In this document: piece after piece, positions 3,164-64,000 of the stretch
Layout of the letters: every line of letters starts with the position of its first letter
How positions within the stretch are numbered: the first letter of the stretch is position 1
Origin: Vermamoeba vermiformis
Lineage: Eukaryota
Assembly: GCA_045837725.1 (NCBI GenBank)
Contig: JBEWZL010000127.1
Location: forward strand, 1 to 64,000
Length of the DNA stretch: 64,000 nt
Direction: 5' to 3'
Translations under genes and position numbers: made by a program
The notes under the pieces: model-generated
Database searches by the model: none
Told to the model about the DNA's origin: nothing
Seen by the model: only the letters and a program-made list of their open reading frames with translations

Positions 3164-3858
3164 ATGGTAAGTAGTTCATAACAATAGTATGAACGAAGCA
3201 CTGACAGACTGATAAAGGACGACGATCCTGAATTGGAAGCCATCCGTCAAAAGCGATTGGCAGAACTTCAAGCAAAGATGGTGCGTGTAATGAATACTAC
3301 GTAATAATCAATATCTAATGGACAATAGGGAGGTCAAGGACCGAATCCCCAACAAATGAAACAAGCTGAAGCTCAAAGGTAAAATAAAAAATAATTACTA
3401 ATAATTATTCAGCGCTATGCACGGCAGTACTCAATGTATATTATAATTGATATTGTATTAATATGAATTTTAAATTCAAGACAAGCCGGAGAAGAACGAC
3501 GACAGATGATCCTGTCGCAACTCTTGACTGGCGCTGCACGAGAGCGATGTATGTAGTGTCTGCTTGCTGGATCCAAATAACTCATTGCAATACTCATACC
3601 ATCGCTAGTGAGTCGCGTCGCACTTGTCAAGCCCGAGAAAGCACGCGGTGTCGAAGATCTGATCATCTCCGCAGCACAGCGCGGTCAAGTGAACACTGTG
3701 GATGAGCCACAACTGATCAGTCTGCTCGAACAGATCAAAGACAAGGAGCAGAAGGAGCAGACAAAGGTCACGGTACGTACCTCGCAGGCATCACTAGCAG
3801 CACTGACCATCGAGTGCAGATCCAGCGCAAGAAGATCTGGGACGATGACGACGATTAA
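3164..3858 (+). CDS. PDCD5: Programmed cell death protein 5 (multi-exon)
   Basis: Exons give DDDPELEAIRQKRLAELQ, RRQMILSQLLTGAARER, SRVALVKPEKARGVEDLII and IQRKKIWDDDDD*. Confidence 0.9.
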
Positions 3859-4045
3859 TACTACGAGCTGTAATTATAAGAGTACAGTGCTCGCAGTGAT
3901 GTGCATAGTGCGATAAACGGGTTATATTACCACCTGATAAACGATTATTCCGCAAATATGATCTATTTTTAGACTATGTACATGCGATTCCAAAAATGGT
4001 ATGGTACAACTATAAACAAAATTGGCAGCAATCACGTGATCGCGA

Positions 4046-7000
4046 CTACTGCGTGTAATTGACAGGTGTCGCAGTGCCACTGTTGTTCGCAGATTCAGCG
4101 GCAGATTTGGCTTTGAGTGTCATCTTGCGCAGACACTTGGGACAGTTGCCACTGACCAGCGCAAAGCAGTGTCGATGATAGACGGACTTGCACTTGACGC
4201 ACAGCGCGATCTTGTCCAGCTGAAAGGGGAACAGCACTTCTTTGCGGTTGTTGCAAATGTCGCAAATGTGTCCCTGACCACGACACAGCGGACATTGCCG
4301 CGTCACGTGCACGATGAATTGTTCCATCAACTTGTACATAAATGGCAACAACACGCCTGTGCGCACCTCCATCAAGTCTTTCAGTGAATACACGTGCAGC
4401 TGTTGCAACAAGTGCAAGCGAGACTGTGGCTCCGTTAGTTGATTGCCTTATTTGGTAATTGTTTGCATACCTGCAAAGATATGACGACAGGAGCGCAGTG
4501 TTTGCAGCGCAGCACGTACTCGGAGAGGGGGATCATTTGTCGCCGCAATTTCTGATGCATCAATGGTGAGTCACGCGCGTCAGAACAGCACAGTGCTCGG
4601 TACTTACGCGCAGCTGATTGAGTGCGGTGACCCAGTCGTAGAGCTGTGGATTGTTGACACCGACATTGATGATGGGGTCGTCAAAGTGCGAGTCAATGTG
4701 TCGCTTGGCTGCAGTGCACACCGAGTACTCCCTGAAGTCCCAGTGATGCACCACGCGTGCGGGGATGATGGCGCGCTTCTTGCTGTGACACTCGCTGCAG
4801 TAGTAGCCGCCCGTGTAGTGACAGTAGCGCACTGTCTTGAAGAAGCCGCTGGACAGCTGACGTCCGCAGCCAGCACAGCGCGATGCAGTGGTGAGCGGTG
4901 CTTTGACAGGCTGATCGAGTATGAAGGACTGGTCGTCAATGTTGATGAACATGGGCATCGAGTTGTAGTCGCGCTCGCTGAGCTGACGAGTGATCACGCG
5001 CTCATCGAACAGCTCTTTCTCGTCATCGGCTGCTGTCTTGTGCACCACATCGTGACTGTCGTCCTCTGCTATGAATAAAAAGCCTATTTTGGGCTGATAA
5101 TCATCTATCACACGCGATTGCAAGATGTAGCCCAGATTGGACTTGACATCACGTGCTGGCTCTTTCTCTGGACTGGCAAGTGGCACGGGATATGTCAACA
5201 TGCGCGTCAGTTCCGCGCTCGGATTGATGATCTGCGCTGTCAGCTCATCGTCCACTGACTCGGAAATTTCCGTCGTGTCGTCAGGAGATTGTTCGAGCTG
5301 CGAATTCGCTGCTAGCGGCGTGTCAGTCGATGGCAAAGTGCCACTCACACTGGTGTTCAGCTCATCACGTGACTCATCGTGCCAGTGACGATCTCCCAGG
5401 GCTTGTTCTACTTGTTGCAGCAGCTGATCGTGCTCGCGCATCATTGAGTCTATATTTAGCAACATGTCACCTGCTGTGCTGTCCGTGTCACCCACTGATG
5501 ACGCGGCATCGCTGTGCATGTCATCAGTCACGTGATCAATGACTTCAGGCACGTGATTGCTGTCAGTGATTTGGGACTCGTTGTTCACTGAATTTTCTTG
5601 TCGGTCATCGTGTGTCACGTGCTCGTTATTACCATTCGGTTCATCACGTGATGTTTGATCTCGGGTCGGAGATTGTGCAAGATCACGTGATCGTCGCGCA
5701 TGCCGCTCTTCAACGACATGTCCGTTCGGTGAATCAGTGTCGAGTGCCACCACGCGCTTGACTGGTCTGCGTCGCTTGCCAGCACGCTTGTCCTGTCCGA
5801 ACAAGTTCACTTCTACCAGGGCCTCGTCTCGCACGCGCTGATAATAGTCCTCGAGGTCGAGGCGCTGCTGTTCGAGACGCAGCTTGAAGGTCAGTGGCTT
5901 CACTGCGCGCAACAGCACCAGCAATATCTCCGCTGCTCGAGATTGCGTCACGAGCGCATTCAGTGAAAAGAACTGGCTCATCTGTTCGTGCGGTGTGTCA
6001 ATCAGGGCGCGGAACAATTCATCCAACAATTGCTGATTGGCTGCTTCAAACAGCGCAGCGCGAAAATAGCCTAATTTGGAGCGAATAGTGACAGGTCCGA
6101 TGGTGTCACCTGTCACTTCTGTCACGTGCTCGGGATCATCGGAGAAATTGACCGCTTCAATGAGAGCACGCACGCGCGCGATGAATTCGCGTCCACGTGA
6201 CCAGTGCAGTTCGAGCAGTGCCACCCAGTCCCACAACTGACTCGCGGCACCTGTCAGTCCTTGACGCGCGATCACTTCGAGCTGTTGGAGCAGGGACACA
6301 CCGCGCTGCGTGTAGATGGGCAGCGGATTGACGGCGTGTTCCTCGAGCAGGGCTGCAATTTCCTTATATAGTTCGTAGAGCAGTTCGCGATCACGACTGC
6401 TGATGCTGCTGTCACTCGTCAACAGCGCGGGCACGTGACTGAACTCCACGCTGGACTGCGCGGCATCCTCGACGGGAGATTGCGCGTAGATTTCTTTGGG
6501 AGAATCGAGTTGTTCCGAGCTCGGTGCGGACTCTCGACCAGGGCTCGGAACTTCTTCCTCGTCTGGCAAGATGACAGGTGGTCGTGTGGGACTGTTTGAC
6601 AGGTGTCAGTGCCCTCCGCAGAACTATATACATCGTGTCCCTATGAGACCAGTACGTACATCATGGGCTGCGCGAGCCAGTACTTCTCTTGATTCAGCTG
6701 CGGATCTTTGAGTTTGAGACTGAAGTTGACGGGGCTAATGCTCTCCAACAGCGATATGAACAGATTGCGCTCATCTTCATTGCGCAATAGTGCATAGTCT
6801 TGATAATGCGACTCGGTCAGTTCTGGATGCCACACCAAGGACTGGATGTACTCGGCCAAACAGTTGTTGTTCAGCGCGTACCGTACAAATATACGCGCAC
6901 GACCCTCTGCAGACTGACCGACAGTTCTGCACAGCACAAGTCACTATTAATAGGTGCACAGAGAGAGTGGTTCGTTACGTACTTGATTTCATCGATTAAC

Positions 7001-36754: not shown

Positions 36755-39700
36755 ATGGCTGCACTGACCACTGTTAGTGGATATGTGAGCCTTCTTGATG
36801 AAAATGAAGATAATCAAGTCAAGGCTTACGCGCTAGAACAGCTTAATGCTCTTGTTGATCAATTTTGGGCTGAAATTGCCGACATAGAAACAATTAAGAA
36901 AATGTAAGCAATAATATTTGTATTATTTGTGGATGTATTTATGCTTTATTTGTGGAAATTGACTTTGTTGTGATCGCATTCAAAATTCATAATTTTTTTT
37001 GAAAGCTTTCCGTGACTAACACGATGTCGTATTTCACAGTGAGGTATTATACGAAGATAAGAATTTTACCCACAGAAAACTGGCTGCTCTTGTTGCATCT
37101 AAGGTAAGAAGACTTTCATCGAGAAAAAATTTTTCAAAATTCAAAAGCCGTCGCTAATGCGTCTGTTCACTGGCAATCATACAGAAACTATTGAAAATTA
37201 CTCACACATGCTATTTTTGTTAGGTTTTTTATCACCTGAGCTCTTTTCCAGATGCTCGTGATTTTGCCTTGCGAGCCGAAGAATTGTTTGATATCTCTCA
37301 AAAGAACGAATATGTAGAGACTATGATTGGTATGTACTTAATATTGCTTACCAATACCGTAGACATTTAATGACTCGATCTTGTCCAGCCAAGTGCATTG
37401 ACGAGTACATTCAATTGCGTGTCGCTAACTACGAGCGACGCAACAAAGACGAGGTCCAGCCCATTGACCCGCGCTTGGAGTCTATTGTCGAGCGCATGTT
37501 CCAGCGCTGTTTTGAAGACAAGGAATACAAGCAGGCTATTGGTATCTCCTTGGAAGCTCGTCGTCTGGATACAATTGAACGCGCAGTCAAGGAGAGTGGC
37601 AGCTCAAAAGAACTGCTCTCCTACACGATGAAGATGGCCATGGAGTTGTTGACCAGTCGTGATTTCCGTCAAGTGGTCTTGCGCACTCTCGTCAAGCTCT
37701 ACAATGACTTGAGCATTCCCGATTACATTAGCATCTGCCGCTGTCTCGTCTTCTTGGACGATGCTGCTGCTGTTGCTGCCATTCTGAGCAAGCTGATCAA
37801 GAGCGACAACTCTGATGACGTCTTGCTCTGCTGTCAAATCGCCTTTGAACTCTGCGACAATGCCACTCAGTCCTTCTTGGCTATTGTCAAGACCGCTTTG
37901 CCTGTGCCTGCCAATGCTGAGGCTAGTGGCGACAAGATGGAAGTCGAAGTCGATGCCAAGGAGAAGAGTTTGCAAACACTGCACAAGATTTTGACTCAGG
38001 AACCAACCATTGAACTGCAACTCGAGTTCTTGTACCGCAATAACCACACAGATTTGAACATCTTGAAGAACATCAAGAATGCATTCGAGCCTCGCAATTC
38101 GATCTTGCACACTGCAACCATCTTCGCCAATGCTCTGATGCACTCAGGAACTACGCGTGACACTTTCTTGAGCAGCAACATTGATTGGTTGGCTCGCGCT
38201 GTCAACTGGTCCAAGTTCTCTGCTGCTGCTGGTCTCGGTGTCATTCACAAGGGTCACTTCAAAGAGGCTATGAATGTTCTCTCGCAGTACTTGCCCCGTC
38301 CTGGCTCTGAGTCACAATACACTGAAGGTGGCTCATTGTTTGCTCTTGGTCTTATCAACACCAACCTCGGTCACAAGTGCACTCCTTACTTGTTGCAACA
38401 ACTCAGAACCAACTCTGCCAACGAAACTATTGTCCACGGTGCTTGCTTAGGTCTCGGTCTCTCTGCCATGGCTACTCAAGATCAAGGTACGTTCACATCT
38501 AATTAGAGTAGTAGACGAATGTTATCGAAGCCATTCAAACGAGTCATTGAACCTCTTGAGTGGTCAAAATGCATTCAATATTCAATTATCCTTTTCTTTT
38601 ATTTCCTTATTAATGGTATTGCCGTGCAGAAATCTTCGAAGAGTTGATGAACGTGCTCTATCAAGACAGTGCTGTTGCTGGTGAAGCTGCTGGTATTGCA
38701 ATGGGTCTCGTCATGTTGGGCTCTGCCTCTGCCAACTGCGCCGAAATGATTAACTTTGCTCACGATACACAACACGAAAAGATTATTCGTGGTCTTGCCA
38801 TTGGTCTCGCGCTGATTATGTATGGCCGCGAAGAAGAAGCTGACACTTTGATCGATCAATTGATGAGCGACAAAGATCCCATTCTCCGCTATGGTGGTGT
38901 CTTCACTATTGGTCTCGCTTACTGCGGTACTGCCAACAACGTTGCCATTCGTCGCTGCTTGCACGTGGCAGTCTCAGACGTTTCTGATGATGTGCGTCGA
39001 GGAGCAGTCTTGGCACTTGGTTTCGTCATGTATCGACAGCCGCATCAACTCCCCGTCCTCGTTCAATTGTTGTCTGAGTCCTACAACCCTCACGTACGCT
39101 ATGGTGCTACATTGGCTGTGGGTATTGCTTGCGCTGGTACTGCCATGAAAGAAGCCATTGATTTGTTGGAACCTATGGCCCGCTCAGATCCAGTAGACTT
39201 TGTGCGTCAAGGAGCACTGATTGCACTCGGCATGGTGAACATTCAAGCCACTGAAGCTTATCAACCTAAAGTGACAGAGATCCGTCAATTGTTCCAAGAG
39301 CGCTACAAGGACAAGCACGAAGCAGTCATGTCACGCTTTGGTGCTATTATTGCCCAAGGTATTATTGACGCTGGTGGCCGCAATGTCACCATCTCACTCA
39401 GCAGTCGCTCTGGTCACCGCAACATGTACGGCATTGTGGGTCTGGCCTTGTTCTTACAGTACTGGTACTGGTACCCTTACATCTATTTCTTGTCGCTGTC
39501 CTTCACGCCCACCGCGATGATTGGGCTCAACAAGGACCTCAAGATGCCCAAGTTCAAGTTCAAGTCCAATGTGCCGCCCAGCCTCTTTGCTTACCCCATG
39601 GACGTCAAGCCTCCTGAGGTTGAAGCTCCCACCAAGGTGCCCGTCGCTCAACTGTCCACCACTCGCAAACAGAAGGCTCGTCAACAGAAGAAGAAGAAAG

Positions 39701-40080
39701 AAGAGGGTCAAGCGATGGATGTCGACAAGGAACACGAGGACGACAAGAAGCCTGAAGCAATGGAGACTGAGACACAACAAGATCTCTCTGCCTCCACGAG
39801 TGTTCCTGCAGATAAGAAGAAGGAAGAGCCGAACTTTGAAATATTAGAGAACCCTGCTCGTGTATTGCGTGCTCAACTGCGCCACATCAGCTTCGATGTA
39901 GATCCGCGATACGTCCCCGCCACTACTGTTGATATCTCAGGCATTGTCTTGTTGCGCGACACCAAGCCAGGCGAGCAAGAAGATCTGATTAGCGACAGTG
40001 TTACCGCCAGCACTACCGCCACTGCTGCTGCCGAAGAGAACGAACCAAATCCACCTGAAGCCTTCGAGTTCGATGGTTAA
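36755..40080 (+). CDS. RPN2: 26S proteasome regulatory subunit Rpn2/PSMD1
   Basis: VDQFWAEI, NWSKFSAAAGLGVIHKGH, PC repeats, SESYNPHVRYG, GIIDAGGRNVTI and PPEAFEF. Confidence 0.97.
38517..38583 (+). ncRNA. Single-hairpin H/ACA-type pseudouridylation guide RNA (AUA box) in an RPN2 intron; predicted LSU rRNA target equivalent to yeast 25S Psi2865
   Basis: Lower stem GAATGT/GCATTC and upper stem CCATTCAA/TTGAGTGG. Pocket strands TATCGAAG and TCAAAA are complementary to conserved LSU UUUUGA-U-N-CUUCGAUG. The ATA box lies 14 nt from the upper stem. Confidence 0.8.
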
Positions 40081-40251
40081 GCCTGTCGAACATCCTTTTG
40101 TAAAAATTGCAAAGTAAAACTCACCATTACATCACAGTACTTGTTTGTCGTTGATCAGCTTGAAGCGACGTCAGTGACGGGAATGCAAATGTGTTAAGTG
40201 AGTTTAGGCCTCCATTTTATTGCTAGTTCGATCAGAACACCACCCCTCACC

Positions 40252-42876
40252 ATGTTAGCACGAACATGGAGCCTAGTCTCCAAGGCAGTGCGTACCACGA
40301 CATTGCAAGGTGTTCCAGGCCGATCCATATCACGATCAGCTCTGCATCGGCTCACAAAAACACAGCAGACTTACAAAACTAATATTTATTATAAAAACAC
40401 AAATACCATATCCCCACTGCGATATGCTCAATATGCTACAAAGCCAGAATCCCCTAGCACTGATGTCAAGAAAACATTCGTTTCATCTCATTTTAAAATA
40501 GATCCAAACGTTATTTATTCATTTTTGAAGAGGAAAAATATAATGTTCAAAGAAGTACCGAGCGACGATAAAAAACTGCGGCTTCGTGACTGTCAGTGGT
40601 GTCACGATACAAAGAACAAATATTCCAACCAATATAAATTGTACATAAACAAAGACAATGGAAGTTATTTATGCTTTCGATGTGGCAGTCGAGGTTCATG
40701 GTAAGAAAATTAACAAATGATTTTTTTGGTCAATTCTACAACCAATTTGACGATCGGATCCGGTGTTTATAGCCGCTTATTGTTATTACTGTAGGTTTGA
40801 TTTTCAACAAAAATATGGAGATTTGACACAAGTCACTGATTGGAAGGGCGAAACAGCGGTGCCCAAAGAACAAGCTGTCGAGGAGTGGGTGCGCCATCCA
40901 GAGCCAGTGCCCACTGATTTTGTCGATGCTGACGGCACACTGCGCGCTGAACCAGTGCAAATACCACCTGAAGAGACGAGCAATCCTAGTCCGAGCAAGA
41001 GAAACAGCCTCACAAAGACGCGTCGTGAGGTGAAGCAGATCAAGACCAAGTACAACGAGACCGAGCTGAAAGAGATCAAGTTGCCTGAGCCCGCCAAGCA
41101 GCAGTCATTCGTGAACAACTTGAGCACCTATCCCGAGCTCATGGACTACCTCGTGCGCGAACGGTAAGTCACACCAAGCGCGTGATCACGTGATTGACAG
41201 GTGTCAAACAGCGGTCTGAAAGCAGAAGTCGTGCACAAATATCTCGTGGGTGGCACTGTGTCGCGCTTCTTCGACGAGAATGACAAGCAGTGGAAGGACT
41301 TCTTGTGCATCACCTTCCCCTGGTTCGGACCACTCTCCCTCGCCACTGCTGGCACCGAGACACTGGTGCGCTACAAGTACCGCGCTCTGGGTGGCAAGTG
41401 GCTGCAGCGATTGGAGCCCATTGGCGGTGGATGGGGCGTGTTCGGCTGGAATTTGATTGCCCCTGAAGTGACTGCCAGCATTGATGGCACACTGCCTGAG
41501 CCCAAGGCAGCAGCGGACGTGTCAAACGGAGTGACAGGTGTCACTGAGAGTGCTGCGAGTCAGAGCGGCAAGACCTCAGTGATCATCACGGAGGGCGAGT
41601 TCGATGCCATGGCTGTCTATCAAGCCACTGGTCTGCCGGCTATTTCACTGCCCTGTGGTGCCAAGTATGTCACGTGATAATTATTGCCTTATTCGGACTA
41701 ACAGTGTTTGCAGCTGTTTGCCTGTGGAAGTTATCACGATGCTCGAGCGATTCGACAAGATCTATTTGTGGCTCGATGACGATGTGGTGGGACAACAAGC
41801 CGCGCAGAAATACGCGCTCAAATTGGGACGCGAGCGCTGCTACATTGTCAGCACCAAGCTTGGAGCCACAACTGGTCCGAAAGATGCGAATGATGCGCTG
41901 CGTCAAGGACATGATTTGGGCACTATTATCAAGGCTGCACGTCGCTTGCCTCACAAACAGATTTTGAATTTCAACGAGATCCGCTCTGAAGTGTTCCGCG
42001 AACTGGCCAATCCCGATCAAGGTAAGTGCGTCGAGTAGCACGCGCACGAACTGACCAATCACAGTGGCTGGACGTCAAATGCGCTCATTCCCGACACTGA
42101 ACAAGCTGCTCAAAGGACATCGCAAGGGCGAGCTGACCATTCTGACGGGTCCGACAGGCATTGGCAAGACGACCATCATCTCGCAGATCAGCATGGACTT
42201 GTGCAGTCAAGGGGTCAACACGCTGTGGGGCAGTTTTGAGTTGAACAACGTGCGACTCGCGAAGAAGATGTTGAATCAATTCGCGCAGAAGAATTTGGAA
42301 AAACATTTGGCTGAATTTGACTTGTGGGCCGACAAGTTCTCGCAAGTGCCGCTCTACTTCATGCGCTTTCATGGTGGCACTGAAGTTGAAGCTGTGCTCG
42401 ACGCCATGGACTACGCAGTGTACGTGTACGATGTTGAACACATTGTGCTGGACAACTTGCAGTTTATGATGCAAGTCGGACACTTCAAGGGCTACGAGAG
42501 ATTTGATCAGCTCGACTCGGCCATCTCATTGTTCCGCAAGTTTGCGACAGAGAAGAACGTGCACATCACGCTGATCATTCACCCGCGCAAAGAGGACGAT
42601 GGTCAGGCCTTGTCCATCAACTCGGTGTTCGGCACTGCCAAGGCCACACAAGAGTCCGACAATGTGATTATTGTGCAGAAAGGCAAGTACTACCGCTACT
42701 TGGAAGTGACCAAGAACAGATTCAGCGGTGACTTGGGCATTGTGCCGTACAAGTACGACAAGGAGAGCAACAAGTACTTTGAACTGCACGGCAAAGATTT
42801 GCAGAAAGTGACTGCAAACAGCGGCAGTCAGAGCGGCCCTGCCACAGTGCACAAAGCACCAGCACCACCCTCGTGA
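40252..42876 (+). CDS. TWNK: Mitochondrial Twinkle primase-helicase
   Basis: Zn finger CQWC..CFRCG, TOPRIM ITEGEFDA, WLDDD and KDAND, and SF4 helicase motifs GELTILTGPTGIGKTT, LDNLQF and IHPRK. Confidence 0.95.
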
Positions 42877-61751: not shown

Positions 61752-64000
61752 ATGTCTCAAGTTATAATTCCACCATTGGCATTGGAGCCTTCAGAAAAAG
61801 AGAATTTGGATTCACCAACCCATGTGAGCATTAATTTTCGTAGCACTATCAATTTATTATAATAAGACTCTTTGACGGTAATTCTGATAATTGTAAATTA
61901 TAGAAAAAGGCTCATTCGAGAATTGGGGCATTGCAAGAGCTCAATAAAAATAGCCCGGTTGTGTTCGCATCTCCGCAACCCGTAAAGAAAAGAACTTACG
62001 ACCAAATGGAATCAGCAAGCACAGCTGAAAAGAAATCTAGACGAGAGGTATGCTTGGATCATGGTTATTTTTGAAAGATCTGAAATTTATCGTTAATCCG
62101 TTCTTCAGAGCTTGCACGAAAAAGCCACCGTGTTCTTCGATAAATTGAAGCGCAGATTGTCTTTGAAGAGTCTTAGACCAAAAGAGGCAAAGAAGAGCGT
62201 AAGTAACTCTTTCGAGTTAATTAGTAGTCGTACTAAGTACATCCGCAGACCAAAGTGTTCGGAGAGCCGTTGCTTTCTGTTCTTGTTAACCAACGTCGTT
62301 CTGGTATCTTCGAAGATATTCCTTACCTCGTAAACAGATGCTTGCACCATTTACTTCCGAAATATGGTACGTTTTTTTACTTTTTGATCCGACCAGATGC
62401 TCATCTCCAAACAGTTGGCGAAGAGGGCTTGTTTCGCGTCTCTGGCAATCACGAGGATTTGAATAACCTCAAAACAGATATCGATGAAGGTATGTTCATT
62501 ATTACCTTTTGCAATAGCACTTCTAACGATGCTCGACAGCTCGTCAAGTGGACTGGGATCAGATCAGCAGCCCTCACTTGGTTGCATGTTTGTTAAAGCA
62601 GTATGTCAGAGAGCTTCCTACACCCCTCATTCCTAATGGCAAGGAAATGATGGAGGTAATCGGTACGTTGCGTGCTATTTTCCAACCGAACGTAAACTGA
62701 CCCTAATACAGGCACCGAAGACGCAGACATCAAGAGACAGCGCTTGTTCGATGCAGTGTCCAAGATCCCTCCTCCCGAGTTGGCTGTTCTGCGTCGTTTG
62801 GTCGAGGGCTTTGCTAAGATCCACGACGCAAGAGACCGCAACAGAATGGATGCGCACAACCTTGCTCTTGTCTGGTCACCCACTCTGTTCAGATTTGATG
62901 AGCAATTGACTCCCGAACAACTGCTCAAGAGTGCACACAACAATGTGCAAGCTGAAGTGATTGAAGCATTGATCCTCGATCATTCCTTCTACTTTGTCCC
63001 TCGCCCTGAAGAGAAGGCATTCGCGGACCTGCAAGCCAATCTCACACTCGAATCAGCTCTGTTCGATCAGTTAGATGACAGCGAGACAGAGACCGAGTTC
63101 AAGAAGCGCCGTAGAATGAGTGTCATGACTCTTGGCATGTCTTCTCCGCGATTCAGCGATGCAGGACTTCCTAGGTATGCATTGGTTGCTTTTCTGATAA
63201 CTTAACTAACGATTTGACAGCGAACCTTCACGAATGTCGATTGATGGTTTTGCATCTCCACGTATGACTGACGAAGCTTCCATGAGCGAAACTTCAGCCC
63301 GAGGACGAAAGCGAAGAAAGCTTGAACGTCAAACCTCCGAGAAGAGAATTCGTGGTACTGTTAAAATGATCTACTACACTGAAAAGAAGAGATCTCTTTA
63401 TGATTACTTCCAGTACGTACACTAGGCCTCGTCTTAAAACTAGCAACTAACAATCTGTACAGACGAGCTTCTTGTTTAGAGAATGCACAAGTTTATGCTG
63501 AGGGTGCCCTCTCACTTGAACAGGCTATGCAAACGCTACAAGGCTGCTCTATTTTGTACCGAAGCATAAAGAAGAATGGCAAGTATGAGGTAAGCGTCAG
63601 TGGCGAGACTAAGTCGGAGTCGAAAAACGCTTCCAACAAGCCAGCGTAGCTCAGTTGGTTAGAGCGTTGGATTCATAACCCAGAGGTCGTGAGTTCGAGC
63701 CTCACCGCCGGCAGTAATTTTTTTTGCTTTTTGTCCAAGCGACCTTTCTTTTCGGCAAGCTTTCAGTATCTTATTCTAGGCAATGCAGACTAATATATTC
63801 TTATTAACCGAACAATTTATTGCAGAGCGCCAAAATTAATCACAAACAAGAGGCGGAACTGAAGCATCACCTCATATGCAAGAAAACTGGTCAAATTTAT
63901 GGACCTATCGTTGTTGTAGCAAGAGAAGACGGTATTATGGGCGTAATTGGCCATGACAAGGACTTGATCCGCAAGATCCTTTTCGATTGAACTTCTGGTT
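61752..64000 (+). CDS. RhoGAP-domain protein (3' truncated, multi-exon)
   Basis: VFGEPL, IPYLV, EEGLFRVSG, LLKQYVRELP and NRMDAHNLALVWSPTLF. Confidence 0.88.
63640..63713 (+). tRNA. tRNA-Met (CAT), elongator-like, inside RhoGAP intron 63590-63825
   Basis: Cloverleaf GCCAGCG-TAGCTCAGTTGGTTAGAGC-..TT-CAT-AA..-GTGAG-TTCGAGC-CTCAC-CGCCGGC-A, followed by an oligo-T Pol III terminator. Confidence 0.88.

What the first reader, a model, noticed from the sequence alone, without database searches (positions are those of the whole stretch)
38517..38583. Single-hairpin H/ACA-type guide RNA with an AUA box in an RPN2 intron
Seen: one hairpin of about 65 nt in intron 38487-38629, with guides TATCGAAG (38523-30) and TCAAAA (38564-69) and ATA 14 nt from the upper stem. 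There are only about 30 nt upstream and a pyrimidine tract downstream, so there is no room for a second hairpin. Established: the guides match the conserved peptidyl-transferase-region sequence UUUUGA-U-N-CUUCGAUG, pseudouridylated at yeast 25S U2865 (snR46). Single-hairpin guides are typical of archaea and euglenozoans, while most eukaryotes use two hairpins. Inference: this lineage may use minimal intronic single-hairpin guides.
Basis: partly seen in the sequence, partly recalled or inferred. Interest (0 to 1): 0.7.

Follow-up and report, generated by a model that had tools for sequence, protein, structure and literature searches.

The report
Lone pseudouridine-guide hairpin in amoeba intron
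A 143-base intron of the proteasome gene RPN2 in a Vermamoeba-like amoeba holds a single hairpin with the features of an RNA that guides pseudouridine formation at a conserved site in the ribosome's catalytic centre, a one-hairpin design so far accepted mainly for archaea and trypanosome-like protists, but no stable RNA has been shown.

Summary
Positions 38517-38580 fold on their own into lower stem, open pocket, upper stem-loop and AUA 14 nt below the pocket (-17.4 kcal/mol, z -2.79, 1 of 200 shuffles as good). The pocket strands pair 8+6 bp (one G-U) around U-C in UUUUGA-UC-CUUCGAUG, which is the Rfam consensus of eukaryotic LSU rRNA. This is the yeast 25S Psi2865/snR46 site (table; mapping recalled). 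Spliced contigs of 4 of 4 runs confirm the intron.

In my window-wide scan this is the only hit with strong stems and a balanced, near-perfect match. Such a hit occurred in 0 of 40 shuffled-rRNA sets and 0 of 60 shuffled windows. The intron has no room for a second hairpin, and the exon-intron stretch upstream does not fold.

The host is Vermamoeba vermiformis or a close relative.

Missing: any sign of a stable small RNA, any orthologue for covariation, any Rfam match, and any second example in the window.

Best reading, about 0.6: an intron-encoded single-hairpin H/ACA-type guide. It resembles trypanosomatid H/ACA-like RNAs, but has AUA and sits in an intron. The lineage-wide inference is untested.

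The parts
38487..38629 (+). Host intron (143 nt, GT..AG, phase 1) of the RPN2 gene
   Evidence: Sequence. Frames of the flanking ORFs. tblastn of P0135. Joint skipping 143 nt in contigs of 4 of 4 runs.
38516..38583 (+). Predicted mature guide RNA, about 65-68 nt. The ends are inferred from the rules for H/ACA RNAs (5' end 1-3 nt before the stem, 3' end 3 nt after the box), not observed.
   Evidence: Fold. Trypanosomatid consensus rules read in PMC2613932. No read evidence for the ends.
38517..38522 (+). Lower stem, 5' strand GAAUGU
   Evidence: MFE and centroid fold
38523..38530 (+). 5' pocket strand UAUCGAAG. It pairs with LSU CUUCGAUG (8 bp, the outermost a U-G), 3' of the target U-C.
   Evidence: Sequence. 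Match to the LSU of L102 at target U3399. Rfam LSU consensus.
38531..38563 (+). Upper stem-loop (9 bp, internal loop, 3 bp, 9-nt apical loop)
   Evidence: Fold
38564..38569 (+). 3' pocket strand UCAAAA. It pairs with LSU UUUUGA (6 bp), 5' of the target U.
38571..38576 (+). Lower stem, 3' strand GCAUUC
   Evidence: Fold
38578..38580 (+). AUA box (ACA-box variant), 14 nt after the upper stem and 1 nt after the lower stem
   Evidence: Sequence. AUA listed as an alternative box in PMC7991803 and PMC3273799.
38505..38510 (+). AGAGUA, which fits the H-box consensus ANANNA, 6 nt before the lower stem. It may be chance (about 1 in 64 per position) or a relic of a hinge. No hairpin precedes it.
   Evidence: Sequence. 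No upstream hairpin.
38584..38629 (+). Pyrimidine-rich 3' part of the intron with a likely branch region (UUAAU near 38609-38615) and the 3' splice site. It leaves no room for a second hairpin.
   Evidence: Sequence. The branch site is inferred by eye, not tested.
37389..38486 (+). RPN2 exon upstream of the intron
   Evidence: tblastn 98% to P0135. Pfam RPN2_N.
38630..40080 (+). Last RPN2 exon, including the stop codon
   Evidence: ORF. Pfam RPN2_C. 471 of 484 residues identical to P0135.

Best explanation
The hairpin at about 38516-38583 is a functional, intron-encoded box H/ACA-type pseudouridylation guide RNA made of one hairpin only.

Proposed mechanism:
- It is transcribed as part of the RPN2 pre-mRNA (shown: the intron is spliced).
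- A Cbf5/Nop10/Gar1/Nhp2 set assembles on the hairpin and its AUA box (inferred).
- After splicing and debranching, exonucleases trim the intron to the edges of the particle, leaving an RNA of about 65-68 nt (inferred).
- The two pocket strands pair with LSU rRNA UUUUGA and CUUCGAUG. The U-C between them is left unpaired at the top of the pocket, 14 nt from AUA, and that U is isomerised to pseudouridine (inferred from the rules for H/ACA guides).

The target is the site equivalent to yeast 25S Psi2865 (snR46) and human 28S U4412 (ACA16), in the single-stranded linker next to the peptidyl-transferase core.

The organism is Vermamoeba vermiformis or a close relative (Amoebozoa, Tubulinea).
For: 1. 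Structure. The isolated 71 nt fold uniquely into lower stem, pocket and upper stem, with MFE equal to centroid: -17.4 kcal/mol, z -2.79, 1 of 200 shuffles as good.

2. Guide. It forms 8+6 contiguous pairs with one G-U around an unpaired U-C. The next-best rRNA site for this pocket has 8 pairs.

3. Target. It is present in the eukaryotic LSU used as stand-in (L102) and is the Rfam consensus of eukaryotic LSU, model positions about 2867-2883, in an unpaired stretch.

4. Chance controls. A hit of this quality occurred in 0 of 40 shuffled-rRNA sets and 0 of 60 shuffled windows. The looser class (balanced arms, <=1 G-U) had a mean of 0.025 and occurred in 2 of 60.

5. Known site. The table in PMC5699541 lists 25S 2865 Psi snR46. 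The table in PMC3542256 equates snR46, human ACA16 (28S U4412), Plasmodium Pfa ACA 41 and an Entamoeba prediction, ACA-Eh-LSU3008. That the U in UUUUGA-U-C is yeast U2865 is my own recalled mapping (yeast number = E. coli number + 369). It is consistent with m5C2870 lying 5 nt downstream in the same table.

6. Geometry. Every measure lies inside the consensus of about 100 trypanosomatid single-hairpin H/ACA-like RNAs (passages of PMC2613932):
- size 57-91 nt (here about 65-68)
- stem I 5-8 bp (here 6)
- 1-3 nt between stem I and the box (here 1)
- 13-16 nt from Psi to the box (here 14)
- 5' pocket side 5-11 nt (here 8)
- guide duplexes 3-9 per side (here 8 and 6)
- perfect stem of 3-7 bp or more next to the pocket (here 9).

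7. Context. It lies on the sense strand of a confirmed spliced intron.

8. AUA is an accepted variant of the ACA box.
Against: - No RNA evidence. All runs offered were assembled contigs, so nothing can be said about a small RNA.
- No orthologue was found, so conservation and covariation are untested.
- No Rfam family matches the region even at E <= 10.
- In yeast, vertebrate and insect systems both boxes and both hairpins matter. Passages read say that the H and ACA boxes are needed for accumulation (PMC7991803) and that truncation to one hairpin reduces activity (PMC12745780).
- The box is AUA, not ACA.
- The host intron (143 nt) is not longer than RPN2 introns 1 and 2 (135 and 120 nt), so size gives no hint of cargo.
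- The whole intron is not unusually stable (z -1.06, 28 of 200 shuffles as good). Its MFE adds an A/U-rich outer helix (38500-10 with 38579-88) that would cover part of AUA. The centroid lacks that helix.
- With only 3 bp required at the pocket top, guide matches of this score are at decoy level. The case therefore rests on the combination of structure and guide.
- The rRNA used is a stand-in from an unknown eukaryote, not this organism's own.
Confidence: 0.6

Rival explanations
1. Relic. The hairpin is the surviving half of an ancestral two-hairpin snR46/ACA16-type snoRNA whose 5' hairpin was lost. It is no longer stably accumulated or active, and the site is served by another guide elsewhere in the genome.
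For: - An H-box-like AGAGUA lies 6 nt upstream of the stem with no hairpin before it.
- Eukaryotic particles outside Euglenozoa are reported to depend on two hairpins.
- No RNA evidence.
Against: - Both stems, both guide strands (14 of 14 pairs), the 14-nt spacing and the box are all intact. A decaying relic in a neutral intron would be expected to lose them.
- ANANNA is expected by chance about once in 64 positions.
Confidence: 0.15
2. Chance. This is an ordinary intronic hairpin whose internal loop happens to be complementary to rRNA.
For: - Guide matches alone are common. With relaxed structure rules the reversed-rRNA decoy scores as high as 16.
- 15 of 60 shuffled windows have some hit scoring >=13.5.
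- The scan that produced this finding looked at very many windows.
- A second 'balanced' hit in this window (4060-4011, minus strand) overlaps a stop codon and looks like chance.
Against: - A hit with all criteria occurred in 0 of 40 and 0 of 60 controls.
- On top of that, the target is one of the few dozen conserved pseudouridine sites.
- The hairpin lies on the sense strand of a confirmed intron.
- The hairpin itself is more stable than 199 of 200 shuffles.
Confidence: 0.15
3. Splicing aid. The structure serves splicing of the RPN2 intron, bringing the splice sites together or hiding cryptic sites, and is not a guide RNA.
For: The MFE of the whole intron pairs the 5' splice site GUACG with CGUGC next to the 3' splice site, and stacks an outer helix on the hairpin.
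Against: - The whole-intron fold is not better than shuffles (z -1.06).
- The centroid keeps the terminal GUACG/CGUGC pairs and the inner hairpin but drops the outer helix.
- This reading does not explain the 14-bp bipartite match to a known pseudouridine site or the box at 14 nt.
Confidence: 0.05
4. Part of a longer canonical RNA. The hairpin is the 3' hairpin of a two-hairpin H/ACA RNA whose 5' hairpin is formed by the exon end plus the intron start, or by sequence elsewhere.
For: AGAGUA at hinge distance.
Against: - Region 38425-38512 folds worse than its shuffles (z +1.55, 193 of 200 as good).
- Such an RNA would contain the 5' splice site and coding sequence.
- Only 46 nt, which include the branch region and the pyrimidine tract, remain downstream.
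Confidence: 0.03

Closest known systems
[quoted passage not shown]
   Same: One hairpin with no H box. Size, stem lengths, pocket sizes, 13-16-nt spacing and 1-3 nt between stem and box all fit the published consensus (passages of PMC2613932). The inferred job is the same: Cbf5-dependent rRNA pseudouridylation.
   Different: The terminal box is AUA here, whereas it is AGA in all known trypanosomatid members. Here the RNA is encoded in a spliceosomal intron of a protein gene, while trypanosome snoRNAs sit in polycistronic clusters, and PMC3542256 says none is reported as intronic in T. brucei. The host is an amoebozoan, not a euglenozoan. No sequence homology was tested or is expected.
Yeast snR46, human SNORA16/ACA16, Plasmodium Pfa ACA 41 and Entamoeba ACA-Eh-LSU3008 (guides for 25S Psi2865 / 28S U4412)
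   Same: Same target uridine in the same conserved LSU sequence (tables in PMC5699541 and PMC3542256). Same pocket logic.
   Different: Yeast and human H/ACA snoRNAs conform to the hairpin-hinge-hairpin-tail architecture (review passage, PMC7991803; for Pfa ACA 41 and ACA-Eh-LSU3008 the architecture was not read). The present RNA has one hairpin. No Rfam family, including the snoRNA families, matches even at E <= 10. The Entamoeba sequences are in supplements that I could not see.
Archaeal single-hairpin H/ACA sRNAs
   Same: One hairpin, one pocket, a terminal ACA-type box, and one set of core proteins per hairpin (PMC7991803).
   Different: From recall, archaeal guides carry a K-turn or K-loop in the upper stem for L7Ae. 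I see no such motif here, though I made no formal search. The context is eukaryotic, intronic and spliceosomal.
Single-hairpin forms reported for Entamoeba histolytica H/ACA snoRNAs, and Giardia candidate 16
   Same: These are non-euglenozoan eukaryotes, one of them an amoebozoan, where hairpin-sized H/ACA RNAs were seen on northern blots or cloned (PMC3542256; PMC1950533).
   Different: The Entamoeba authors propose processing from a double-hairpin precursor. Here the intron cannot encode a double-hairpin precursor.

Membership tests
Box H/ACA pseudouridylation guide RNAs (general class) | Hairpin with an internal pseudouridylation pocket between a lower and an upper stem | tested here: met
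   MFE equals centroid for 38515-38585, z -2.79
Box H/ACA pseudouridylation guide RNAs (general class) | Bipartite complementarity of the two pocket strands to a target, leaving U-N unpaired | tested here: met
   8+6 bp around U-C of the LSU motif. Next-best target has 8 bp. Controls.
Box H/ACA pseudouridylation guide RNAs (general class) | Target uridine 14-16 nt upstream of the box | tested here: met
   14 nt (38564-38577) between the upper stem and AUA
Box H/ACA pseudouridylation guide RNAs (general class) | ACA box (or accepted variant) exactly 3 nt from the mature 3' end | tested here: inconclusive
   The box is AUA, an accepted variant. The 3' end of any RNA is unknown, because only contigs were available.
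Box H/ACA pseudouridylation guide RNAs (general class) | Stable accumulation and binding by Cbf5/dyskerin, Nop10, Gar1 and Nhp2 | not testable with these tools
   No raw small-RNA reads and no genome were held
Canonical eukaryotic H/ACA snoRNA (hairpin-hinge-hairpin-tail) | Two hairpins, the first followed by the H box ANANNA and the second by ACA | tested here: not met
   Only 30 nt lie upstream in the intron. The exon end plus intron start does not fold. Downstream there are 46 nt of pyrimidine tract and branch region. An ANANNA-like AGAGUA exists, but no hairpin precedes it.
Rfam snoRNA families, including those for this target (snR46, SNORA16) | Significant covariance-model match | tested here: not met
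   0 matches to any of 4227 families at E <= 10 on 38400-38720. Nothing at this locus in the whole-window searches.
Trypanosomatid-type single-hairpin H/ACA-like RNA | Single hairpin of 57-91 nt; stem I 5-8 bp; 1-3 nt to the box; 13-16-nt spacing; perfect stem next to the pocket | tested here: met
   Values of about 65-68 nt, 6 bp, 1 nt, 14 nt and 9 bp, set against the consensus read in PMC2613932
Trypanosomatid-type single-hairpin H/ACA-like RNA | Terminal AGA box; genes in polycistronic snoRNA clusters | tested here: not met
   AUA box, a single copy in the window, and a location inside an RPN2 intron

The most novel reading that the evidence does not exclude
A tubulinean amoeba (Vermamoeba) makes working one-hairpin H/ACA particles from spliceosomal introns. 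If so, minimal single-hairpin pseudouridine guides are not confined to archaea and Euglenozoa. They would be either an ancestral eukaryotic state kept in several lineages or a form that evolves repeatedly, and the two-protomer architecture thought to be needed for eukaryotic H/ACA stability and activity would be dispensable in a relative of animals and fungi.
Probability: 0.35. Interest if true: 0.65.

Novelty: new variant of a known kind. Interest (0 to 1): 0.5.

Why it matters
Textbook eukaryotic H/ACA RNPs are dimers built on two hairpins, and recent structural work stresses cross-talk between the two halves (PMC12745780, passages). The accepted exceptions are euglenozoans.

A verified single-hairpin guide in Amoebozoa would be a new data point on how the two-hairpin design arose. 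It would be cut from an intron too short to hold anything else, and it serves a universally conserved site next to the peptidyl-transferase centre. It would also offer a natural minimal eukaryotic H/ACA RNP for biochemistry.

There is a practical lesson for annotation. Standard two-hairpin snoRNA finders and Rfam miss such genes, so pseudouridine guides may be under-annotated in amoebae. In the held library, the 6 of 8 papers listed for 'Vermamoeba' plus 'snoRNA' were not about its snoRNAs, judging by titles and abstract starts.

Tried and rejected
- RNA evidence. The runs listed were all Logan contigs. The four laid (X2, X3, X15, X16) show the spliced joint and no contig over the intron. A part without cover in contigs says nothing for or against a small RNA.

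- Orthologous introns.
  - The metagenome scan with an RPN2 alignment returned 80 loci, with best-segment identity 41-57%.
  - None of the 80 loci holds ATCGAAG..TCAAAA..ANA.
  - RPN2 in viral contigs: 12 pattern matches, none a relative.
  - Prokaryote assemblies contaminated with eukaryotic rDNA: 0 of 5 with the DNA query.
  - 400 genomes of one phylum with the protein query: 0 of 400, with one further genome not scored.

- Own genome: none held.

- Own rRNA: not available. The LSU motif was absent from viral contigs. I used contaminant eukaryotic rDNA, L102, as a stand-in.

- More guides in the window.
  - The strict scan gave two other hits scoring >=13.5. One is 47759-47703 (minus strand), with 4 G-U pairs. 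The other is 4060-4011 (minus strand), with 9+5 bp to 5.8S but a 4-bp lower stem, and it overlaps the stop codon and 3' end of ORF 4046-4447. I rejected both as chance.
  - The relaxed target-first scan gave 83 rows on the plus strand (the minus-strand count fell in the cut part of the output), against 63 and 61 distinct hits with reversed rRNA. That is no enrichment, and only the finding's hairpin folds correctly.
  - A simple C/D-box scan gave 0 candidates.
  - Rfam at E <= 1 over the window gave only tRNA-Met and a sub-threshold lncRNA hit.

- Second hairpin: folds of 38420-38583 and 38425-38512 show none.

- Intron length as a clue: rejected, because introns 1 and 2 are 135 and 120 nt.

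- Protein atlas for taxonomy: uninformative.

- Earlier findings of the scan: none for this genome or sequence, and one unrelated archaeal note.

- Papers: supplementary files were not consulted. The Entamoeba snoRNA sequences that could be compared with this hairpin are in such files.
Full report
**What is in the sequence.**
The finding lies in a 143-nt intron (38487 GT to 38629 AG, phase 1) that splits two long open frames. The frames carry the N-terminal and C-terminal domains of proteasome subunit RPN2: Pfam RPN2_N 3.8e-54 and RPN2_C 1.3e-47.

The intron is real. Contigs of all four public runs that I laid (X2, X3, X15, X16) join 38486 directly to 38630, skipping 143 nt with GT..AG ends.

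The gene has three further introns of 135, 120 and about 58 nt (tblastn of P0135 and reading of the sequence). The host intron is therefore not conspicuously long.

**The hairpin.**
Folded alone, 38515-38585 gives one dominant structure, with MFE equal to centroid: -17.4 kcal/mol, z -2.79, 1 of 200 dinucleotide shuffles as stable. Its parts are:
- a 6-bp lower stem (38517-22 with 38571-76)
- an open internal loop of 8 nt (UAUCGAAG, 38523-30) and 7 nt (UCAAAAU, 38564-70)
- an upper stem of 9 bp capped by a small internal loop, 3 bp and a 9-nt loop (38531-63)
- one unpaired A
- AUA at 38578-80.

AUA starts 14 nt after the last base of the upper stem.

**The guide match.**
The 3' pocket strand pairs with UUUUGA and the 5' strand with CUUCGAUG (the outermost pair is U-G). 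This leaves U-C unpaired between them, the arrangement expected of an H/ACA pocket.

No genome or rRNA of this organism is held. I therefore fetched eukaryotic rDNA that contaminates prokaryote assemblies and used L102, which Rfam delimits as complete SSU, 5.8S and LSU. The motif is at LSU position 3393 of that stand-in, with target U3399.

The same letters are the consensus of Rfam's eukaryotic LSU model, in an unpaired linker at about model positions 2867-2883. Absence of the target from this organism's rRNA is therefore very unlikely.

For this pocket the next-best site anywhere in SSU, 5.8S or LSU has 8 pairs against 14.

**Which site is targeted.**
The table in PMC5699541 lists 25S 2865 Psi snR46, with m5C2870 five positions later. 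The table in PMC3542256 equates snR46 with human ACA16 (28S U4412), Plasmodium Pfa ACA 41 and a predicted Entamoeba guide.

That the unpaired U is yeast U2865 is my own mapping from recalled numbering (yeast = E. coli + 369). It agrees with the position of C2870 in CUUC.

**Is it more than chance?**
I wrote a scanner for lower stem, pocket, upper stem and an ACA/AUA/AGA box at 14-16 nt, plus a bipartite match to the stand-in rRNA.
- It found 627 and 541 structural candidates on the two strands (349 and 293 distinct upper stems).
- The finding's hairpin was the best hit on the plus strand.
- Three loci scored >=13.5, against a mean of 0.3 in 40 shuffled-rRNA sets.
- Two loci had balanced arms and at most one G-U, against a mean of 0.025.
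- One locus, this one, also had strong stems, against 0 of 40.
- With 60 block-shuffled windows and the real rRNA, the same three classes occurred in 15, 2 and 0 windows of 60.

Against this, when I required only 3 bp at the pocket top, matches of equal or higher score were as common with reversed rRNA as with the real one. The guide match alone proves nothing. It is the conjunction with a stable, correctly shaped hairpin that is rare.

Two further facts were not used in the scan and lower the chance reading further. The target is one of a few dozen conserved pseudouridine sites, and the hairpin is on the sense strand of a confirmed intron.

The other 'balanced' hit (4060-4011, minus strand) has a 4-bp lower stem and overlaps the stop codon of ORF 4046-4447. 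I take it as chance.

**One hairpin or two?**
Upstream of the stem the intron has 30 nt. After position 38583 it has 46 nt, which are pyrimidine-rich and must hold the branch site.

The only way to add a 5' hairpin would be to use the end of the exon. That stretch (38425-38512) folds worse than its shuffles: z +1.55, 193 of 200 as good.

AGAGUA at 38505-10 fits the H-box consensus ANANNA 6 nt before the stem, but no hairpin precedes it. This may be chance or a trace of a lost hinge.

The whole intron is not unusually stable (z -1.06). Its MFE adds an A/U-rich outer helix that would cover part of AUA, but the centroid does not keep it.

**Whose genome?**
The RPN2 exon is 97% identical (471 of 484 residues) to a protein that shares a 90% cluster with my best database hit and carries the EukProt label Vermamoeba vermiformis.

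The next relatives are at 71% or less. Named ones at about 58-65% are other amoebae (Stenamoeba, Thecamoeba and others) and early-diverging fungi.

The window is thus from V. vermiformis or a close relative (Amoebozoa, Tubulinea).

**What is known.**
- Passages of PMC2613932 describe trypanosomatid H/ACA-like RNAs. They are single hairpins of 57-91 nt with no H box, a terminal AGA 3 nt from the end, stem I of 5-8 bp, 1-3 nt to the box, 13-16 nt from Psi to the box, and guide duplexes of 3-9 nt per side. The same passages name Euglena and archaea as other homes of single hairpins. The present hairpin meets every metric but has AUA.
- A review (PMC7991803) says most studied eukaryotes use hairpin-hinge-hairpin, with few exceptions such as trypanosomes. 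It also says AUA, AAA or AGA can replace ACA.
- In Tetrahymena no single-stem form was found, and nine H/ACA snoRNAs end in AUA, UAA, UCA or AAA (PMC3273799).
- In Entamoeba, northern blots suggested that some H/ACA snoRNAs exist as single hairpins, thought to be cut from double-hairpin precursors. Only one snoRNA gene, a C/D-box one, was intronic (PMC3542256).
- Giardia has one cloned single-hairpin candidate (PMC1950533).
- In Dictyostelium only one H/ACA snoRNA had been cloned (PMC8817022).
- A search for 'Vermamoeba' plus 'snoRNA' found 8 papers. The 6 listed are not about its snoRNAs, judging by titles and abstract starts.
- Against easy acceptance, truncating a eukaryotic H/ACA RNA to one hairpin lowers activity (PMC12745780).

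I read only search listings and the quoted passages of these papers, and no supplements.

**What could not be done.**
- No raw reads were on offer, so there is no evidence for or against a small RNA.
- No orthologous intron could be fetched, so there is no covariation test.
- Rfam finds nothing at the locus even at E <= 10, and nothing but a tRNA-Met elsewhere.
- No second guide, of either snoRNA class, turned up in the 64 kb. This is not surprising for one window, but it leaves the lineage-wide idea untested.

**Verdict.**
The best explanation (about 0.6) is a genuine intron-encoded, single-hairpin H/ACA-type guide for the snR46/ACA16 site.

It works like the euglenozoan H/ACA-like RNAs. It cannot be filed as a canonical eukaryotic two-hairpin H/ACA snoRNA, because that feature was tested and not met. 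It also cannot be filed as a member of the trypanosomatid AGA-box family.

The rivals are a decaying relic of a two-hairpin gene (0.15), chance (0.15), a splicing-related structure (0.05) and part of a longer RNA (0.03).

It is a new variant of a known kind if real. A northern blot and one pseudouridine map would settle it.

Noticed in passing
window 4011-4060, minus strand: A short hairpin with an ATA box whose pocket would pair 9+5 bp (no G-U) with 5.8S rRNA position 50 of the stand-in. It has only a 4-bp lower stem and overlaps the stop codon and 3' end of ORF 4046-4447, so it is probably chance.
   Followed up: partly
window 38505-38510: AGAGUA, a fit to the H-box consensus ANANNA, sits 6 nt before the guide hairpin with no hairpin upstream of it. 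It is either chance or a trace of a lost hinge.
   Followed up: partly
window 38473-38482 and 38553-38563: The exon sequence just before the 5' splice site (ACUCAAGA) is complementary to the 3' strand of the hairpin's upper stem. The centroid fold of 38420-38583 prefers this exon-intron pairing. It could compete with hairpin formation in the pre-mRNA.
   Followed up: no
window 38500-38510 with 38579-38588: An A/U-rich 10-bp outer helix, present in the MFE of the whole intron, would extend the hairpin and cover part of the AUA box. It is absent from the centroid.
   Followed up: partly
window about 40200-42100, plus strand: The gene downstream of RPN2 has a CxxC zinc-finger-like motif and a Toprim-like stretch. 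Pfam Toprim_2 and Toprim_3 give E 4e-4, below their curated cut-offs. It looks like a primase-helicase of the Twinkle kind, a resemblance I recall rather than tested.
   Followed up: partly
window 63640-63713, plus strand: A tRNA-Met (CAU) gene. It is the only Rfam hit in the window above a gathering score.
   Followed up: yes
runs X2-X14: The same RPN2 mRNA, at least 99% identical in X2 and X3, appears in runs labelled with at least seven different organism codes (A-G), and in root, sludge and biofilm RNA libraries. One search shows X2 and X3 to hold spliced RNA. This fits an amoeba that is widespread and often co-cultured with other organisms. X15 also holds a spliced variant about 92% identical, which could be a related strain or species.
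   Followed up: partly
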